DNA of 64,000 bases from Escherichia phage ECO103 4-12-1: the sequence record OR844650, one strand, 5' to 3'. The notes under the pieces are model-generated. The model searched no databases, was not told the origin of the DNA, and worked only from the letters and a program-made list of their open reading frames with translations. The position numbers were made by a program, and so were the translations under genes. Below, in pieces: positions 27,873-49,015 of this stretch (within the stretch, counting starts at the first letter, position 1; the number at the start of each line of letters is the position of its first letter).

Positions 27873-28319
27873 TTAGTTATATGCAGTGAATAGATCAATA
27901 TTTTTATCATCTACACTGATTAATTTACCAGTTGAACTAACAAACACAATATTACCACCAGGGGTGATTTGAACACGCTGGTTTACTGAATATTGATCAC
28001 TAAGGTTATAATTAGCCCATTCAACTACATAACGCTGTTCAACACCGTTAGTATCATATAGATAAACGTGTGTAACGTCACGCATTTTTAAACGGTCTAA
28101 CAGTGTAGAGTTGTCCATGAAATCCGATGGTGTATTGCTGCGTAATGCAATACCGAACTCACCGATAACAGTACTAATTGTCAGTCCGTTTGAAAAACGG
28201 CTACAAAGAGTCTTCTCATCAGCAATATGCATCCATAAAACATTCTTTACATCAATATCAACAAATTCACAGTTTTCAAAAACCAAACCTACTTTGGAAA
28301 CTTTACCATTAAATTGCAT
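27873..28319 (-). CDS. hypothetical protein
   Basis: 148 aa ORF. Confidence 0.55.
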   Translation of the reverse strand: MQFNGKVSKVGLVFENCEFVDIDVKNVLWMHIADEKTLCSRFSNGLTISTVIGEFGIALRSNTPSDFMDNSTLLDRLKMRDVTHVYLYDTNGVEQRYVVEWANYNLSDQYSVNQRVQITPGGNIVFVSSTGKLISVDDKNIDLFTAYN

Positions 28320-28719
28320 TAGTAACTCCTATTTTTTTATATTTTAAAATTAAATCACTCACGGCTTTCATTAGCTTATATGGAATAGCTAACTCTTGAA
28401 CAGTACTTTCCATAAAATGTTCTTCTTCTGTATCATAAAATGTTGAACTATAGTGTTCACAATCATCTATACTATCATAAAAAGAAGACGTAAGTTTATC
28501 AACAATGACAGTGATTTGTTTGTCAGTTTTGGCACATCCTACCTGAACGGTTAATCCAATATCATCAGCCTCTACACGAATTATAAACGAATTATTAGTA
28601 TAGTTCAGCCAACAATCTTCACCAAAGTATACAACACTGTGTTTCTTCTGAAATGAAGTTGCGGTGTTAAGAACACCAATAACAACATCAACTGTTTTTT
28701 CATTTAAAATATTAGACAT
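28309..28719 (-). CDS. EE-FQ C-terminal-module family protein
   Basis: C-terminal EEEHFMESTVQE; start trimmed to internal Met. Confidence 0.55.
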   Translation of the reverse strand: MSNILNEKTVDVVIGVLNTATSFQKKHSVVYFGEDCWLNYTNNSFIIRVEADDIGLTVQVGCAKTDKQITVIVDKLTSSFYDSIDDCEHYSSTFYDTEEEHFMESTVQELAIPYKLMKAVSDLILKYKKIGVTNAI

Positions 28720-29140
28720 TTTTATTCCTGCTTCGTATGTTTCGTGAAATCTCAAATATTCCATTCAACTGCTCAGCAGTTAAACCCTGTAAATCGTAAA
28801 CTGTTGATAGCTGAAAGAACATCTCTGAATCTATAGTATCATGTTCAATTGGAAGACTCAAGAGGTCTTTATTAATAAAATAATCATATGTTCGAATTGT
28901 CAAAGAATCACCAAAGATATCAATGTAAAATTTCGGAACATTATGTAACGAAACATCTATTAATATGTTTTCAGCATATCTACAAGAAATTTTAGAATTA
29001 TTTTTATAAGATTGGTATGAAAAATTATAAGGTTCATCGACCAATGTGTATGATGAGGTATCACCTTCGGAAAATATTACACCACATTCAATAAGATGTG
29101 TTAACGACTTAGGTGGAATTTTTAACATTTCACTTCCCAT
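28712..29140 (-). CDS. EE-FQ C-terminal-module family protein
   Basis: SEMFFQLSTVYDLQGLTAEQLNGIFEISRNI. Confidence 0.6.
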   Translation of the reverse strand: MGSEMLKIPPKSLTHLIECGVIFSEGDTSSYTLVDEPYNFSYQSYKNNSKISCRYAENILIDVSLHNVPKFYIDIFGDSLTIRTYDYFINKDLLSLPIEHDTIDSEMFFQLSTVYDLQGLTAEQLNGIFEISRNIRSRNKNV

Positions 29141-29558
29141 CCTTACTCATATTACTACGGATCACCCCACTAAGAAAACATATTTTCCTTAATGTATCAT
29201 AACTGATATTTGTAAGATTATGTACAAAATTCAACTGCAAGTACATTTCTTCAGTTAATTGATTAAATGTATCATCAACATGAATGTTAGTATGTTCCGT
29301 TATATCTATTTCTATATTATTTTCCCAAATATCAATGCTAACAGCATAGTCTGATGTATGTCTGGATTGAACTGAAATAAAAATATTATTACTGTTGTAT
29401 AATGTCTCGGTGTATCCATTCAAAAATGATCCAACGACAACATCAAAAATGCCATCTCTAATTGGGTTTTTTGTTTCAAACGTATCACTACAAACTTGAC
29501 GGTATACAATGTCAACATACTTATCAATTAAAGTAAACAAATAACTCATTGCATTCAC
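29130..29558 (-). CDS. EE-FQ C-terminal-module family protein (divergent)
   Basis: TEEMYLQLNFVHNLTNISYDTL. Confidence 0.5.
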   Translation of the reverse strand: MNAMSYLFTLIDKYVDIVYRQVCSDTFETKNPIRDGIFDVVVGSFLNGYTETLYNSNNIFISVQSRHTSDYAVSIDIWENNIEIDITEHTNIHVDDTFNQLTEEMYLQLNFVHNLTNISYDTLRKICFLSGVIRSNMSKDGK

Positions 29559-29573
29559 CTATATAAGAAAAAA

Positions 29574-29594
29574 GGCCGATTCATCGAATCAGCC
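29574..29594 (-). terminator. intrinsic terminator
   Basis: GGCCGATTC-atc-GAATCAGCC hairpin then U run on minus RNA. Confidence 0.5.
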
Positions 29595-29783
29595 TTAAGT
29601 ATAACACAGTAGAAGTTAAAAAGTCAACTTCTAAATTACAGCATCCAAGAGGAATAAAAAGATACTGTTAGAGGGTAACGAATATAATGAATTTGAGGGT
29701 AATATCATTATACGTAAAAAAGTGATAGCTTCTATACATAAGGAGGAATCAGTACTGACTAGAAGCTATCGGGTTAAACGATT

Positions 29784-30068
29784 TCAGTACTGAGTGTTTA
29801 GTTTAGGATGAGTATTTCCATCTTCGATTTGTTTTAGAATCGAGTCACGAATTTCTACTGCCCCTTGATAACTATATTTATCTTTTGGGATCACCCATGT
29901 ATATTCGCCATCAGTGGTTTTAAAATCAATACATGGATTATCCCTGTATTCAGATGCAATGATTGCAATAACATGTAATGAATTCAATGAATGATTTGTA
30001 TAAGGATAATTGTTATTATCTCTGAACGTGAATGTTTTAAGTTCATCAGGTGCAACAATGAATTCCAT
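29784..30068 (-). CDS. hypothetical protein
   Basis: 94 aa ORF. Confidence 0.5.
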   Translation of the reverse strand: MEFIVAPDELKTFTFRDNNNYPYTNHSLNSLHVIAIIASEYRDNPCIDFKTTDGEYTWVIPKDKYSYQGAVEIRDSILKQIEDGNTHPKLNTQY

Positions 30069-30259
30069 TATTCATCCTCGTACTTCTTGAATGGTGGAAC
30101 ATCTACCTTGAAGTCTTTGCACATCTTAGTTGTACGAACTTCAGTATTGTTGTGATAATTTTTCTTAAATTCATAAGAAACATAATTACGAATACCAGGT
30201 GTATGAATAATAGCAAGAACCAATGTACGACCAAACAAGCATAATAAATTCCAGAACAT
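30068..30259 (-). CDS. small membrane protein
   Basis: 63 aa with hydrophobic N-terminus. Confidence 0.4.
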   Translation of the reverse strand: MFWNLLCLFGRTLVLAIIHTPGIRNYVSYEFKKNYHNNTEVRTTKMCKDFKVDVPPFKKYEDE

Positions 30260-30268
30260 ATGAATCTC

Positions 30269-47400: not shown

Positions 47401-47429
47401 ATTGTAGGATAAACCCACAATAATGTCAA
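47401..47429 (-). promoter_or_regulatory. sigma70-type promoter TTGACA-17-TACAAT
   Basis: rc reads TTGACAttattgtgggtttatccTACAAT. Confidence 0.5.
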
Positions 47430-47821
47430 GATGTGAAATAATTATACCAGTAATATAGTTCTTTTAATTCTTCAGTACTGAACAATACTTCTTCTATTGT
47501 AGATTGTTGAAAGTGATATTCATCATTTAGATACATAGAAATATTACTATATACTTTCCTATTGTATTGACATAAAAAAGAAGTTTTTTGATTAATGTAT
47601 TCAGTAAATGTTAATTTATCTAACTCAATATCGAATGATAATTTAATAATATGACTATTATCATTTACATACATTAGTTTCTTTGAAAAATGATCAATTG
47701 TAATATATTCTTTATGAGAGAACTGAAATATATTATTAAATTTATTACCATTTGTGCTTCTAAATTTTTCAAGGTAATAAGAAAGTGGTTTAATTATTGA
47801 AGTTCCAATATTGTTCTTCAT
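47426..47821 (-). CDS. EE-FQ C-terminal-module family protein
   Basis: LNDEYHFQQSTIEEVLFSTEELKEL. Confidence 0.6.
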   Translation of the reverse strand: MKNNIGTSIIKPLSYYLEKFRSTNGNKFNNIFQFSHKEYITIDHFSKKLMYVNDNSHIIKLSFDIELDKLTFTEYINQKTSFLCQYNRKVYSNISMYLNDEYHFQQSTIEEVLFSTEELKELYYWYNYFTS

Positions 47822-47848
47822 ATATCCTCAATTTTAGATAAGAAAAAT

Positions 47849-47865
47849 GCCCCGAAGATCGGGGC
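47849..47865 (-). terminator. intrinsic terminator
   Basis: GCCCCGA-aga-TCGGGGC hairpin then U-rich tract on minus RNA. Confidence 0.6.
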
Positions 47866-47981
47866 AGTACTAAAATGATTTTGTACCAAAAGGGGAATAA
47901 GAACAAAATGAAAATATAATAACGCATCATTATTATGTAAGGGAGGAAAGTAACATGATATGTTAACCATTTCTGGTATAT

Positions 47982-48533
47982 TTATTTATCATTTAATTCT
48001 TTAAGTTGGGTTTGTATATCTTTAGTTATATTTCGAATTTTCTTAAAGCAATAAACACTATCGTCCAATTCGATTTTAAGTTCATGTGTAAATGCATACA
48101 GAAGTTCAGCAAATACTAAATCTTGACGCATCCAGTTTCCATCTTTATATAAAGTCATTACACAATATGGGCATTCACTATTAGAAGTTTGCTTTCCAAT
48201 AAAAACACTTTGAATTGATTCATGCTTAAAGCCAATAAAACTTTCATTTATTTTTTTAATTTCAGTACTGATATCGAATTTAGCACTGGTGTTGATTGCA
48301 AAAATTTTATTCCCACTTTCATCAGTATTGATATTGAGTTCAATATCACTACCTAGTTTACGTACTGCTAGAGTATAAAGAAGTAATTCATACATGTCGT
48401 AACTTGTTACATTACCATTTGGTGCAATTACATCAACACTAACACCGTGCATTTTTACTTCTGTATTAAATCCATCTTTATCAGAAAGAAAATCAGTGAT
48501 TTGCTTTGTAAGGATTTTAATTTGGTCTATCAT
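47982..48533 (-). CDS. hypothetical protein
   Basis: 183 aa ORF. Confidence 0.55.
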   Translation of the reverse strand: MIDQIKILTKQITDFLSDKDGFNTEVKMHGVSVDVIAPNGNVTSYDMYELLLYTLAVRKLGSDIELNINTDESGNKIFAINTSAKFDISTEIKKINESFIGFKHESIQSVFIGKQTSNSECPYCVMTLYKDGNWMRQDLVFAELLYAFTHELKIELDDSVYCFKKIRNITKDIQTQLKELNDK

Positions 48534-48554
48534 ATTTCATTTCCTTATGTGATA

Positions 48555-48577
48555 AAAGCCTCCATAATGGAGGCTTT
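48555..48577 (-). terminator. intrinsic terminator
   Basis: AAAGCCTCCA-taa-TGGAGGCTTT hairpin + U run. Confidence 0.65.
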
Positions 48578-48586
48578 TGTATTTAC

Positions 48587-49015
48587 TTAGAGAGATTCTT
48601 CGTATTCAGCAACAATCTCAACCATTTCATTAATGAACTTGATGTGAGAATGTGTCACTGTACGGAAGTCGTAAACAAGTGACTGTTGGAAAAATACATC
48701 TTCATCAAGAGAACCATCAAAGTTCAAATCAATGTTTTCATCGTCATTGCTTGGTGCAACTTTAATATTCAGAAGATTTTCATCAACTGCAAGTTTTACA
48801 ACACAACCCAGTGCAATGGCAAGAACATATGCTGGTTTCTTAGCTTTTTCATTACGGAATGGTGCACGTAGAGCACAAAAAGTACTGCTAATCTCATCAT
48901 TTGGTTCTTTGTATTTAACATTGACCATTAGTTCTTCGATTTTGACGCTCTCAATAACACGACCAGTTTCTGGAGCGAAGAAAGAATGTTCACGGATAGT
49001 TTGTTCGATATTCAT
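48587..49015 (-). CDS. EE-FQ C-terminal-module family protein (first gene of the array in transcription order)
   Basis: SLDEDVFFQQSLVYDFRTVTHSHIKFINEM. Confidence 0.6.
   Translation of the reverse strand: MNIEQTIREHSFFAPETGRVIESVKIEELMVNVKYKEPNDEISSTFCALRAPFRNEKAKKPAYVLAIALGCVVKLAVDENLLNIKVAPSNDDENIDLNFDGSLDEDVFFQQSLVYDFRTVTHSHIKFINEMVEIVAEYEESL

What the first reader, a model, noticed from the sequence alone, without database searches (positions are those of the whole stretch)
28309..49015. Tandem expansion of at least 22 small proteins sharing a C-terminal EE-x-[FY]-F-Q-x-S-[TL]-[IV] module
Twenty ORFs of roughly 115-180 aa between 28.3 and 49.0 kb (28309, 28712, 29130, 30269, 30627, 32540, 33000, 35529, 35930, 36687, 41459, 42282, 42731, 45289, 45723, 46175, 46554, 46960, 47426, 48587) plus two outliers (9033..9629, 14642..15160) carry the same motif 25-45 residues from the C-terminus, e.g. 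EESLFQYSMINDIGGLTLDEVNAILAVSRLV, SEMFFQLSTVYDLQGLTAEQLNGIFEISRNI, EEGFFQQSLIREIG, DEDVFFQQSLVYDF, EEEYFQMSTVQE. The N-terminal 80-130 residues look unrelated between members, and many members overlap their neighbour by 4-11 nt. The tail after the motif often follows G-[LI]-T-x-[ED]-[ED]-[IL]...S-R, which resembles a helix-turn-helix or sigma region-4.2-like segment. I do not recognise this as a described family. A variable head with a constant C-terminal module suggests a shared docking or DNA-binding tail on diversified effectors, plausibly host-takeover or anti-defence proteins.
Basis: seen in the sequence. Interest (0 to 1): 0.9.

Follow-up and report, generated by a model that had tools for sequence, protein, structure and literature searches.

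The report
Huge hidden protein family in jumbo phages
The 22 small genes are real members of an undescribed protein family found only in RaK2-like jumbo phages; a whole genome carries about 40-60 copies, each predicted to be one compact domain built around a conserved buried helix, with function still unknown.

Summary
Confirmed and enlarged. The window is an Asteriusvirus jumbo coliphage, 98-99% identical to phAPEC6. All 22 listed minus-strand ORFs carry [TS]-E-E-x-[FYL]-F-[QM]-x-S-[TL]-[VI] in register. Leave-one-out HMMs recover the C-terminal part of every member; no other window ORF matches. N-terminal parts show no sequence or profile similarity.

AlphaFold models of two dissimilar members (pLDDT 92.6 and 90.4) both give one domain: a 5-7-stranded beta-meander plus two C-terminal helices. 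The motif is the first helix, with an N-cap and a single variable stripe. It looks like a buried core, not a separable tail or helix-turn-helix.

The genes lie among near-consensus sigma70 promoters, are absent from the virion proteome, are mostly acidic, and show dN/dS of 0.12-0.26. Best reading: an early-expressed repertoire of diversified binders. The function is inferred, not shown.

The parts
9033..9629 (-). Family member (198 aa, basic, pI 9.1; about 50-aa N-terminal extension); motif NDEEYFQESIV
   Evidence: Leave-one-out C-terminal HMM E 0.0044; 187-sequence profile E 2e-10; TH47 ortholog at 135840-136412
14642..15160 (-). Family member (172 aa); motif TEENVFQQSLI
   Evidence: Leave-one-out E 1e-5; profile E 3.4e-10
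28309..28764 (-). Family member (151 aa as longest ORF; phAPEC6 annotates a 136-aa version); motif TEEEHFMESTV
   Evidence: Leave-one-out E 1.9e-7; positional ortholog in RaK2 at 30% identity
28712..29140 (-). Family member (142 aa); motif DSEMFFQLSTV; its equivalent is not annotated in phAPEC6 GenBank
   Evidence: Leave-one-out E 1e-10
29130..29558 (-). Family member (142 aa); degenerate motif TEEMYLQLNFV
   Evidence: Leave-one-out E 5e-4; profile E 1.6e-13
30269..30634 (-). Family member (121 aa); motif TEESLFQYSMI; full-length paralog of 30627..31052
   Evidence: Leave-one-out E 3e-12; N-terminal HHalign against the 30627 group gives prob 86.8; 72.7% identity to the JP4 ortholog
30627..31052 (-). 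Family member (141 aa, pI 4.1); motif TEEKFFQYCLV
   Evidence: Leave-one-out E 2.6e-8
32540..32923 (-). Family member (127 aa); motif DEEDEFQKRTV
   Evidence: Leave-one-out E 1.2e-5; dN/dS against JP4 of 0.17 and 0.12
33000..33353 (-). Family member (117 aa); motif TEEEYFQMSTV; structure predicted
   Evidence: AF2 pLDDT 90.4, pTM 0.81: helix 3-14, five strands, helix 84-93 (the motif), helix 100-116; near-consensus sigma70-like promoter at 33412-33385
35529..35933 (-). Family member (134 aa); weakest motif, VEEEFQYNLL
   Evidence: Leave-one-out E 0.025; profile E 2.7e-7
35930..36478 (-). Family member (182 aa, pI 9.45) with a basic C-terminal extension; motif TEEERFMLSTI
   Evidence: Leave-one-out E 1.4e-4; RaK2 ortholog at 32.5% identity
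36687..37079 (-). Family member (130 aa); motif SEEDEFQKNTT
   Evidence: Leave-one-out E 0.011; profile E 1.8e-7
41459..41902 (-). Family member (147 aa); motif LEEMYFQQLTI; its equivalent is not annotated in phAPEC6
   Evidence: Leave-one-out E 2.7e-4
42282..42734 (-). Family member (150 aa); motif NDEYVFQLSTV
   Evidence: Leave-one-out E 1.2e-5
42731..43273 (-). Family member (180 aa, pI 8.9) with a charged C-terminal extension of about 45 aa; motif SEEEFFQRSTI
   Evidence: Leave-one-out E 1.9e-7
45289..45729 (-). Family member (146 aa, pI 4.1); motif TEESLFQLSTV
   Evidence: Leave-one-out E 1e-7
45723..46184 (-). Family member (153 aa); motif TEEGFFQQSLI
   Evidence: Leave-one-out E 1.1e-9
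46175..46552 (-). Family member (125 aa); motif SEEELFQLSLI
   Evidence: Leave-one-out E 3.8e-5
46554..46958 (-). Family member (134 aa); motif TEESFFMASTI; structure predicted
   Evidence: AF2 pLDDT 92.6, pTM 0.84: seven strands (13-87), helix 93-102 (the motif), helix 110-130; BFVD Foldseek finds its RaK2 ortholog at TM 0.87
46960..47370 (-). Family member (136 aa); motif TSESLFQRSLV
   Evidence: Leave-one-out E 1.7e-8; sigma70-like promoter at 47429-47401 just upstream
47426..47821 (-). Family member (131 aa); motif NDEYHFQQSTI
   Evidence: Leave-one-out E 1.4e-8
48587..49015 (-). Family member (142 aa); motif DEDVFFQQSLV
   Evidence: Leave-one-out E 1.4e-5; RaK2 positional ortholog at 47.6% identity
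28000..49100 (-). Thirteen near-consensus (at least 11 of 12) TTGACA-N16-18-TATAAT promoter-like sites on the coding strand within the array, none on the other strand
   Evidence: Whole window: 35 on the minus strand and 2 on the plus strand; Markov-1 simulations give about 3 per strand, maximum 8

Best explanation
What it is (shown or strongly supported). The 22 ORFs belong to a very large paralogous family of small proteins (about 100-240 aa), mostly acidic, confined to RaK2-like jumbo phages. Each protein is predicted to be one alpha/beta domain: a 5-7-stranded antiparallel beta-meander sheet, sometimes with an N-terminal helix, covered by two C-terminal helices. The conserved motif [TS]-E-E-x-[FYL]-F-[QM]-x-S-[TL]-[VI]-x-[DN] is the first of those helices. 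T or S is the helix N-cap. The invariant F and the T/L-V/I pair face the sheet. Only the three x positions, spaced i, i+4 and i+8, vary. The 'G-L-T-x-E-E' segment is the loop plus the N-cap of the second helix. The constant module is therefore the fold's core, and the sheet has diverged beyond sequence recognition.

How it arose (inferred). The family grew by whole-gene tandem duplication. Most of the expansion predates the split of the Escherichia and Klebsiella phage genera, because positional orthologs survive. The genes remain under purifying selection.

How it most likely works (inferred, not shown). The genes are transcribed by host sigma70 RNA polymerase immediately after infection and are not packaged in virions. 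Each paralog presents a different sheet or loop surface on the same scaffold and binds a different host, or possibly phage, macromolecule. Together they would form a repertoire for host takeover and defence evasion, analogous to the multigene families of large eukaryotic DNA viruses.
For: Family: motif register and leave-one-out HMMs.

Fold: two high-confidence AF2 models of dissimilar paralogs share one architecture. Independent BFVD models of RaK2 and other paralogs at 12-14% identity match at TM 0.54-0.61. Both models retrieve the same weak PDB neighbours.

Core helix: in 139 non-redundant sequences the profile is T63/S23, E94, E96, x, F/Y/L, F99, Q87/M13, x, S93, T60/L37, V53/I35, x, D64/N20.

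Duplication: full-length similarity within tandem pairs, for example 35% over 99 aa and 41% over 149 aa, and N-terminal HHalign between the 30269 and 30627 groups.

Age and selection: colinear positional orthologs in RaK2 at a median 30% identity, against 45% for neighbouring genes. dN/dS is 0.12-0.26 in both halves.

Scale and range: 46-59 copies in TH47 and 37-45 in OU509535.1, all on the coding strand. There are 12-13 in 20 kb of an uncultured relative. The family forms 132 clusters at 50% identity among 1.84 billion proteins, all small with the module at the C-terminus. The named members come only from jumbo phages. All 44 tblastn-hit records are 345-385 kb RaK2-like phages.

Early, non-structural role: promoter excess on the coding strand. 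None of the array's genes is among the 62 virion proteins of phAPEC6 (PMC7247149). The equivalent small-ORF region of phage CBB was predicted to be early host-takeover genes (PMC5259590).

Charge: 17 of 22 in the window and 45 of 59 in TH47 are acidic, against 49% of other ORFs.
Against: No experiment bears on function, and no partner, expression timing or phenotype is known. Early expression rests only on promoter consensus and analogy.

The structures are predictions for 2 of 22 members, and burial of the motif helix is inferred from periodicity, not measured. Four polar residues (E, E, Q, S) are 87-96% conserved. That is more than packing alone usually needs and could mark a shared functional site.

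Close strains show little variation: most members are 97-100% identical between the window and JP4. Pairwise dN/dS shows no positive selection, so there is no direct sign of an arms race.

Common descent of the N-terminal sheets cannot be proved from sequence.
Confidence: 0.5

Rival explanations
1. Shared docking helix. The conserved helix pair is an exposed interface that tethers every paralog to one common hub, such as host RNA polymerase, the phage sigma factor encoded at 18823-19788, or another paralog. The variable sheet would carry the specific activity.
For: E94, E96, Q87 and S93 are conserved as strongly as the hydrophobic core in 139 non-redundant sequences. The module is far more conserved than the rest of the protein, even between orthologs: the alignment of 46554 with P0012 (58% identical overall) diverges visibly more in the N-terminal part.
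Against: The variable positions form a single i, i+4, i+8 stripe, so about two thirds of the helix circumference is constrained, as expected for a buried helix. Both AF2 models pack it against the sheet with pTM above 0.8. No partner is known.
Confidence: 0.2
2. p32/Mam33-like acidic oligomers acting as decoys. The proteins would form homo- or hetero-oligomeric acidic rings or sheets that mimic nucleic acid, or soak up basic host proteins such as nucleoid proteins or restriction and defence nucleases.
Confidence: 0.15
3. DNA-binding helix-turn-helix or sigma region 4.2-like tail.
For: Only the superficial pattern G-[LI]-T-x-[ED]-[ED]-[IL]...S-R seen in a few members.
Confidence: 0.03
4. The motif is a protease recognition site, resembling either the TEV/3C type E-x-x-Y-x-Q|S or the T4 prohead-protease type L/I-x-E|, and so marks the proteins for processing.
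For: EEEYFQMS and similar strings resemble ENLYFQ|S, and L-T-E / I-S-E resemble T4 gp21 sites (my own knowledge of those consensus sites, compared).
Against: The motif is predicted to be helical and packed, not extended and exposed. The invariant residues (second F, S, T/L, V/I) do not fit either consensus. The proteins are absent from the virion proteome. No 3C-like protease was noticed in the annotated regions examined, but none was searched for.
Confidence: 0.03
5. Neutral or selfish gene amplification with no specific function, or mis-called ORFs.
For: Very fast divergence; function unknown.
Against: dN/dS is 0.12-0.26. Colinear positional orthologs are retained between phage genera. All copies lie on the coding strand, with none on the opposite strand. 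The fold predictions are confident.
Confidence: 0.04

Closest known systems
MAM33 / p32 (gC1qBP) family of acidic mitochondrial matrix proteins
Polo-box domains (PLK1/2/4, ZYG-1, Cdc5, KKT3)
   Different: Identity is 5-14% and no Pfam POLO_box match exists. The phage proteins have two C-terminal helices rather than one. They do not occur as tandem boxes, and there is no evidence of phosphopeptide binding.
Lineage-specific expansions in jumbo phages, such as the ~35-copy zinc-ribbon family of Bacillus phage G (PMC7824862) and the RCC1-repeat gene array of phAPEC6 (PMC7247149)
   Same: Dozens of paralogs of one small domain sit in tandem arrays in a jumbo phage genome. The RaK2 authors noted that about 10% of its proteins are paralogs (PMC3622015).
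   Different: This is a different, undescribed domain. Its copy number (37-59) is at least as high. Paralogs are so diverged that PHROGs places the 22 window members in 20 separate families.
Multigene families of large eukaryotic DNA viruses (ASFV MGF360/505, poxvirus ankyrin and Bcl-2-like families); comparison from my own knowledge
   Same: A conserved scaffold with highly diverged paralogs, clustered in variable genome regions, non-structural and expressed early. In those viruses the families are linked to host range and immune evasion.
   Different: The folds are unrelated. For the phage family, the link to host range or defence evasion is only a hypothesis.

Membership tests
MAM33 / p32 (Pfam PF02330) | Sequence or profile match to the MAM33 family | tested here: not met
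   No Pfam hit at E<=1 for 10 members or E<=0.01 for all 22. The PDB sequence-profile search found nothing.
MAM33 / p32 (Pfam PF02330) | alpha-beta7-alpha2 fold with the helices on one face of a twisted antiparallel sheet | tested here: inconclusive
MAM33 / p32 (Pfam PF02330) | Doughnut-shaped homotrimer with an asymmetric acidic surface | not testable with these tools
   No multimer prediction was available. Only overall acidity could be shown (pI 4.1-5.1 in 17 of 22).
Polo-box domain | Profile match to POLO_box and a beta6-alpha fold | tested here: inconclusive
Polo-box domain | Tandem boxes forming a phosphopeptide-binding cleft (His-Lys pincer) | tested here: not met
   Each protein has a single domain. 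No conserved His or Lys appears in the family profile.
Helix-turn-helix / sigma70 region 4.2 | Profile match to an HTH or Sigma70_r4 family | tested here: not met
   None in Pfam or NCBIfam for any of the 22.
Helix-turn-helix / sigma70 region 4.2 | Two helices joined by a tight 3-4-residue turn within a helical bundle, with a basic DNA-facing surface | tested here: not met
   The helices are joined by a 6-7-residue loop and packed on a beta sheet. Most members are acidic.
Protease cleavage site (TEV/3C-like or T4 prohead protease) | Extended, solvent-exposed recognition sequence; products found processed or in the head | tested here: not met
   The motif is predicted helical at high pLDDT. None of the proteins is in the phAPEC6 virion proteome. 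Cleavage itself cannot be tested here.
Known anti-phage defence proteins (PADLOC) | Match to any defence-system model | tested here: not met
   No member matches at E<=0.01.
EExFFQxS family (defined here) | C-terminal module [TS]-E-E-x-[FYL]-F-[QM]-x-S-[TL]-[VI] followed by a second amphipathic helix, in a 100-240 aa protein of a RaK2-like jumbo phage | tested here: met
   Met by all 22 window ORFs; by 46-59 ORFs of TH47, 37-45 of OU509535.1, about 16 of 73 kb of RaK2, 4-5 of 40 kb of GAP32 and 2-3 of 40 kb of XbC2; and by 132 clusters at 50% identity in 1.84 billion proteins.

The most novel reading that the evidence does not exclude
RaK2-like jumbo phages devote about 7-10% of their genes (roughly 40-60 per genome) to one previously unrecognised scaffold. 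A conserved buried helix pair holds up a hypervariable beta sheet, and the set works as a phage-encoded repertoire of binders. Each paralog would neutralise or redirect a different host factor or defence protein in the first minutes of infection, and the repertoire would shape host range. This would be a bacterial-virus counterpart of the immune-evasion multigene families of poxviruses and ASFV, and a natural small binder scaffold.
Probability: 0.3. Interest if true: 0.8.

Novelty: new variant of a known kind. Interest (0 to 1): 0.62.

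Why it matters
More than 80% of the genes of these 350-kb phages have no assigned function (83% in phAPEC6; PMC7247149). This result collapses dozens of 'orphan' genes per genome into a single family: 20 separate PHROGs for the window's members alone. 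The family now has a confident predicted fold, a diagnostic motif and a defined phylogenetic range.

It is one of the largest paralog expansions I am aware of in any phage, and it sits in the predicted early region, where host-takeover and anti-defence functions are expected. That makes it directly testable by pooled toxicity screens, pull-downs and cluster deletions on defence-carrying hosts. Several of these phages are being developed for therapy against E. coli, Klebsiella and Salmonella.

If the paralogs prove to be diversified binders, the scaffold would also interest protein engineers.

Tried and rejected
- **Helix-turn-helix / sigma 4.2 reading:** rejected. No profile match, the geometry is wrong, and the proteins are acidic.
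- **TEV- or prohead-protease-site reading:** rejected. The motif is helical and packed, and the proteins are not in virions.
- **N-terminal homology between paralogs:** leave-one-out HMMs and HHalign of 23 ortholog-group profiles found essentially nothing, only the 30269/30627 pair. Common descent of the sheets therefore rests on predicted structure and on a few full-length tandem pairs.
- **Sequence libraries:** Pfam, NCBIfam, PADLOC and PDB sequences gave nothing.
- **Hypervariability test:** comparing the window with JP4 showed that most members are 97-100% identical, with only 30269, 32540 and 35930 diverged. dN/dS of 0.12-0.26 gave no sign of positive selection.
- **Literature:** papers on phAPEC6, RaK2, CBB, Sharanji and fEgEco12, the jumbo-phage reviews, and motif-string searches do not mention this family. 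phAPEC6's 'array of closely related genes' appears to be the RCC1-repeat genes gp001-010.
- **Source of the window:** I first assumed it was phAPEC6 itself. It is only 98-99% identical to phAPEC6, and G17 and Sharanji are as close.

Full report
**Source of the window.** The window is a piece of an Asteriusvirus jumbo coliphage. The segment 43771-46184 is 100% identical to Escherichia phage vB_EcoM_phAPEC6 (MK817115.1, 352.6 kb). Over its whole length the window is only 98-99% identical to phAPEC6, and G17 and Sharanji are equally close. It lacks one ~400-bp gene that phAPEC6 carries (gp090c). Almost all genes lie on the minus strand.

**The fold.** AlphaFold2 on 46554-46958, with an alignment of paralogs and orthologs, gave pLDDT 92.6 and pTM 0.84. 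The model has seven consecutive beta strands (residues 13-87), a helix at 93-102 and a helix at 110-130. I then chose the member whose N-terminus looked least like it, 33000-33353. It gave pLDDT 90.4 and pTM 0.81, with helix 3-14, five strands, helix 84-93 and helix 100-116. Both are single compact domains with the same order of elements. In both, the conserved motif is the first C-terminal helix. Independent BFVD models of other paralogs from RaK2 and related phages, at 12-14% identity, match model 1 at TM 0.54-0.61, and the RaK2 ortholog matches at 0.87.

**The motif as a core helix.** The profile over 139 non-redundant sequences reads T63/S23, E94, E96, x, F/Y/L, F99, Q87/M13, x, S93, T60/L37, V53/I35, x, D64/N20. 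After a short loop comes T45/S14/D11, x, E59/D16, and then a heptad-like hydrophobic pattern. These frequencies are inflated somewhat because the sequences were selected by the HMM. T/S followed by acidic residues is a classical helix N-cap pattern (textbook helix-capping preferences). The only variable positions fall at i, i+4 and i+8, a single stripe. About two thirds of the helix surface is therefore constrained, as expected for a helix wedged between the sheet and the second helix. The 'G-L-T-x-E-E' segment that suggested a helix-turn-helix is the loop plus the N-cap of helix 2. I infer that the constant module is the core of the fold.

**Helix-turn-helix and sigma 4.2 are not supported.** No HTH or Sigma70_r4 profile matches any member. 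The helices are joined by a 6-7-residue loop and lie on a sheet. No HTH protein appears among the structural neighbours. Seventeen of the 22 members have pI 4.1-5.1.

**Distribution.** A tblastn search with the 46-residue consensus against 50,697 phage records gave 44 hit records. Every one is a 345-385 kb RaK2-like jumbo phage, from Escherichia, Klebsiella, Salmonella, Cronobacter, Pectobacterium, Erwinia or Xanthomonas hosts. An exhaustive HMMER search of 1.84 billion representative proteins with the C-terminal profile found 132 clusters at E<=1e-3. All are 62-222 aa with the module near the C-terminus. Those with names come from the jumbo phages Munch, SE_PL and EJP2. One unnamed example lies on a 40-kb metagenomic contig that is syntenic with RaK2 and JP4 and holds 12-13 members in 20 kb.

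**The family is much larger than the window shows.** I assembled two unannotated complete genomes and scanned every ORF. Asteriusvirus TH47 has 46 members at E<=1e-3 after iteration and 59 at E<=0.1, all on the coding strand. They form two big clusters. One corresponds to the window (24 members). A second one of about 37 ORFs lies at TH47 40.9-81.4 kb, outside the window. Singletons occur elsewhere. A RaK2-like Klebsiella phage (OU509535.1) has 37-45 members, again in two main clusters. A strict regex finds 34 and 36 coding-strand ORFs and none on the opposite strand. phAPEC6 carries the second cluster too: an ortholog sits at record 317,295-317,696 at 94% identity. The 40-kb regions of GAP32 and XbC2 that I fetched have fewer members, 4-5 and 2-3. 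The family thus makes up roughly 7-10% of the genes in Asteriusvirus and Alcyoneusvirus genomes.

**Evolution.** Most paralogs resemble each other only across the motif. A few tandem neighbours are similar over their whole length: 35% over 99 aa, 41% over 149 aa and 47% over 100 aa. This points to whole-gene duplication followed by extreme divergence, not to a mobile tail fused onto foreign heads. Twelve of the 22 window members have colinear positional orthologs in RaK2. Their median identity is 30%, against 45% for neighbouring non-family genes. The expansion is therefore old and the family evolves fast. Against the close relative JP4, most members are 97-100% identical. The three most diverged pairs give dN/dS of 0.12-0.26 in both the N- and C-terminal parts. 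That indicates purifying selection with no detectable positive selection by this blunt test.

**Context and likely role.** The coding strand of the window carries 35 sites matching TTGACA-N16-18-TATAAT at 11 or more of 12 positions, against 2 on the other strand. Markov simulations give about 3 per strand, with a maximum of 8. Thirteen of the sites lie inside the array, several directly upstream of members. The equivalent small-ORF region of phage CBB was proposed to be the early host-takeover region on the same grounds (PMC5259590). None of the array's proteins is among the 62 virion proteins found by mass spectrometry in phAPEC6 (PMC7247149).

Putting this together, I commit to the following model. 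The proteins are early, non-structural and cytoplasmic. They share a scaffold whose variable sheet presents different binding surfaces, forming a repertoire for host takeover or defence evasion. The structural and evolutionary parts are well supported. The function is inference only.

**Main rivals.** The conserved helix could be an exposed docking site for a common hub. The unusually strong conservation of E, E, Q and S keeps this alive. Alternatively, the proteins could be p32-like acidic oligomeric decoys. The protease-site, DNA-binding and 'junk' readings are contradicted by the data above.

**Literature.** No paper I could search describes the family. The RaK2 authors noted only that about 10% of its proteins are paralogs (PMC3622015). 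[quoted passage not shown]

Noticed in passing
outside the window: L009-L010 (TH47 40.9-81.4 kb); phAPEC6 record about 277-318 kb: A second, larger cluster of about 37 ORFs of the same family. It includes runs of more recent tandem duplicates, for example four genes with WDSEEYYFQQST at TH47 69128-70947. Singletons lie at TH47 108, 117.6, 336.6 and 351 kb.
   Followed up: yes
window 31069-34895 (- strand): Seven tRNA genes (Thr, Asn, Met, Ser, Arg, Ser, Gly) are embedded in the middle of the array. ARAGORN calls the one at 32413-32504 tRNA-Ser with anticodon ACT, which is unusual.
   Followed up: no
window 1-64000: There are 35 near-consensus sigma70-type promoters on the minus strand and 2 on the plus strand, against about 3 expected per strand. 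Strong terminator-like hairpins sit at 47866-47848 and 29596-29572.
   Followed up: partly
window 33423-33909 and 34398-35117: Other small duplicated genes lie here, separate from the family. Three tandem 54-aa ORFs sit at 33423-33587, 33584-33748 and 33745-33909. A paralog pair at 34398-34598 and 34923-35117 both begin M.WIHKMTHEEW.
   Followed up: no
window about 31950; L001 7771-8173: The window lacks a ~400-bp gene present in phAPEC6 (gp090c). The window is not identical to any record in the phage collection (best 98.7%). JP4 carries an HNH endonuclease among the tRNAs at the equivalent place.
   Followed up: partly
L001 4523-4939 and 17686-18129 (phAPEC6 record): The GenBank annotation of phAPEC6 leaves at least two family members uncalled: the equivalents of window 28712-29140 and 41459-41902.
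   Followed up: partly
window 30269-30634: This member is only 72.7% identical to its JP4 ortholog, while flanking genes are 98-100% identical. This looks like a local allelic replacement. 32540 (84%) and 35930 (93%) show the same to a lesser degree.
   Followed up: partly
window 43771-44631: A DNA cytosine methyltransferase sits inside the array. It is conserved at the same relative position in RaK2 (64% identity), GAP32 and XbC2.
   Followed up: no
window 18823-19788: A phage-encoded RpoD-like sigma factor (44% identical to the RaK2 sigma factor) lies between the two outlier members and the main array.
   Followed up: no
L002 14666-15328 (phAPEC6 gp011c, just outside the window): A 220-aa ORF carries a degenerate copy of the module (SSDLMFQYSLIHKD; E 0.0045). 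Its TH47 ortholog at 117657-118370 scores E 3e-7.
   Followed up: partly
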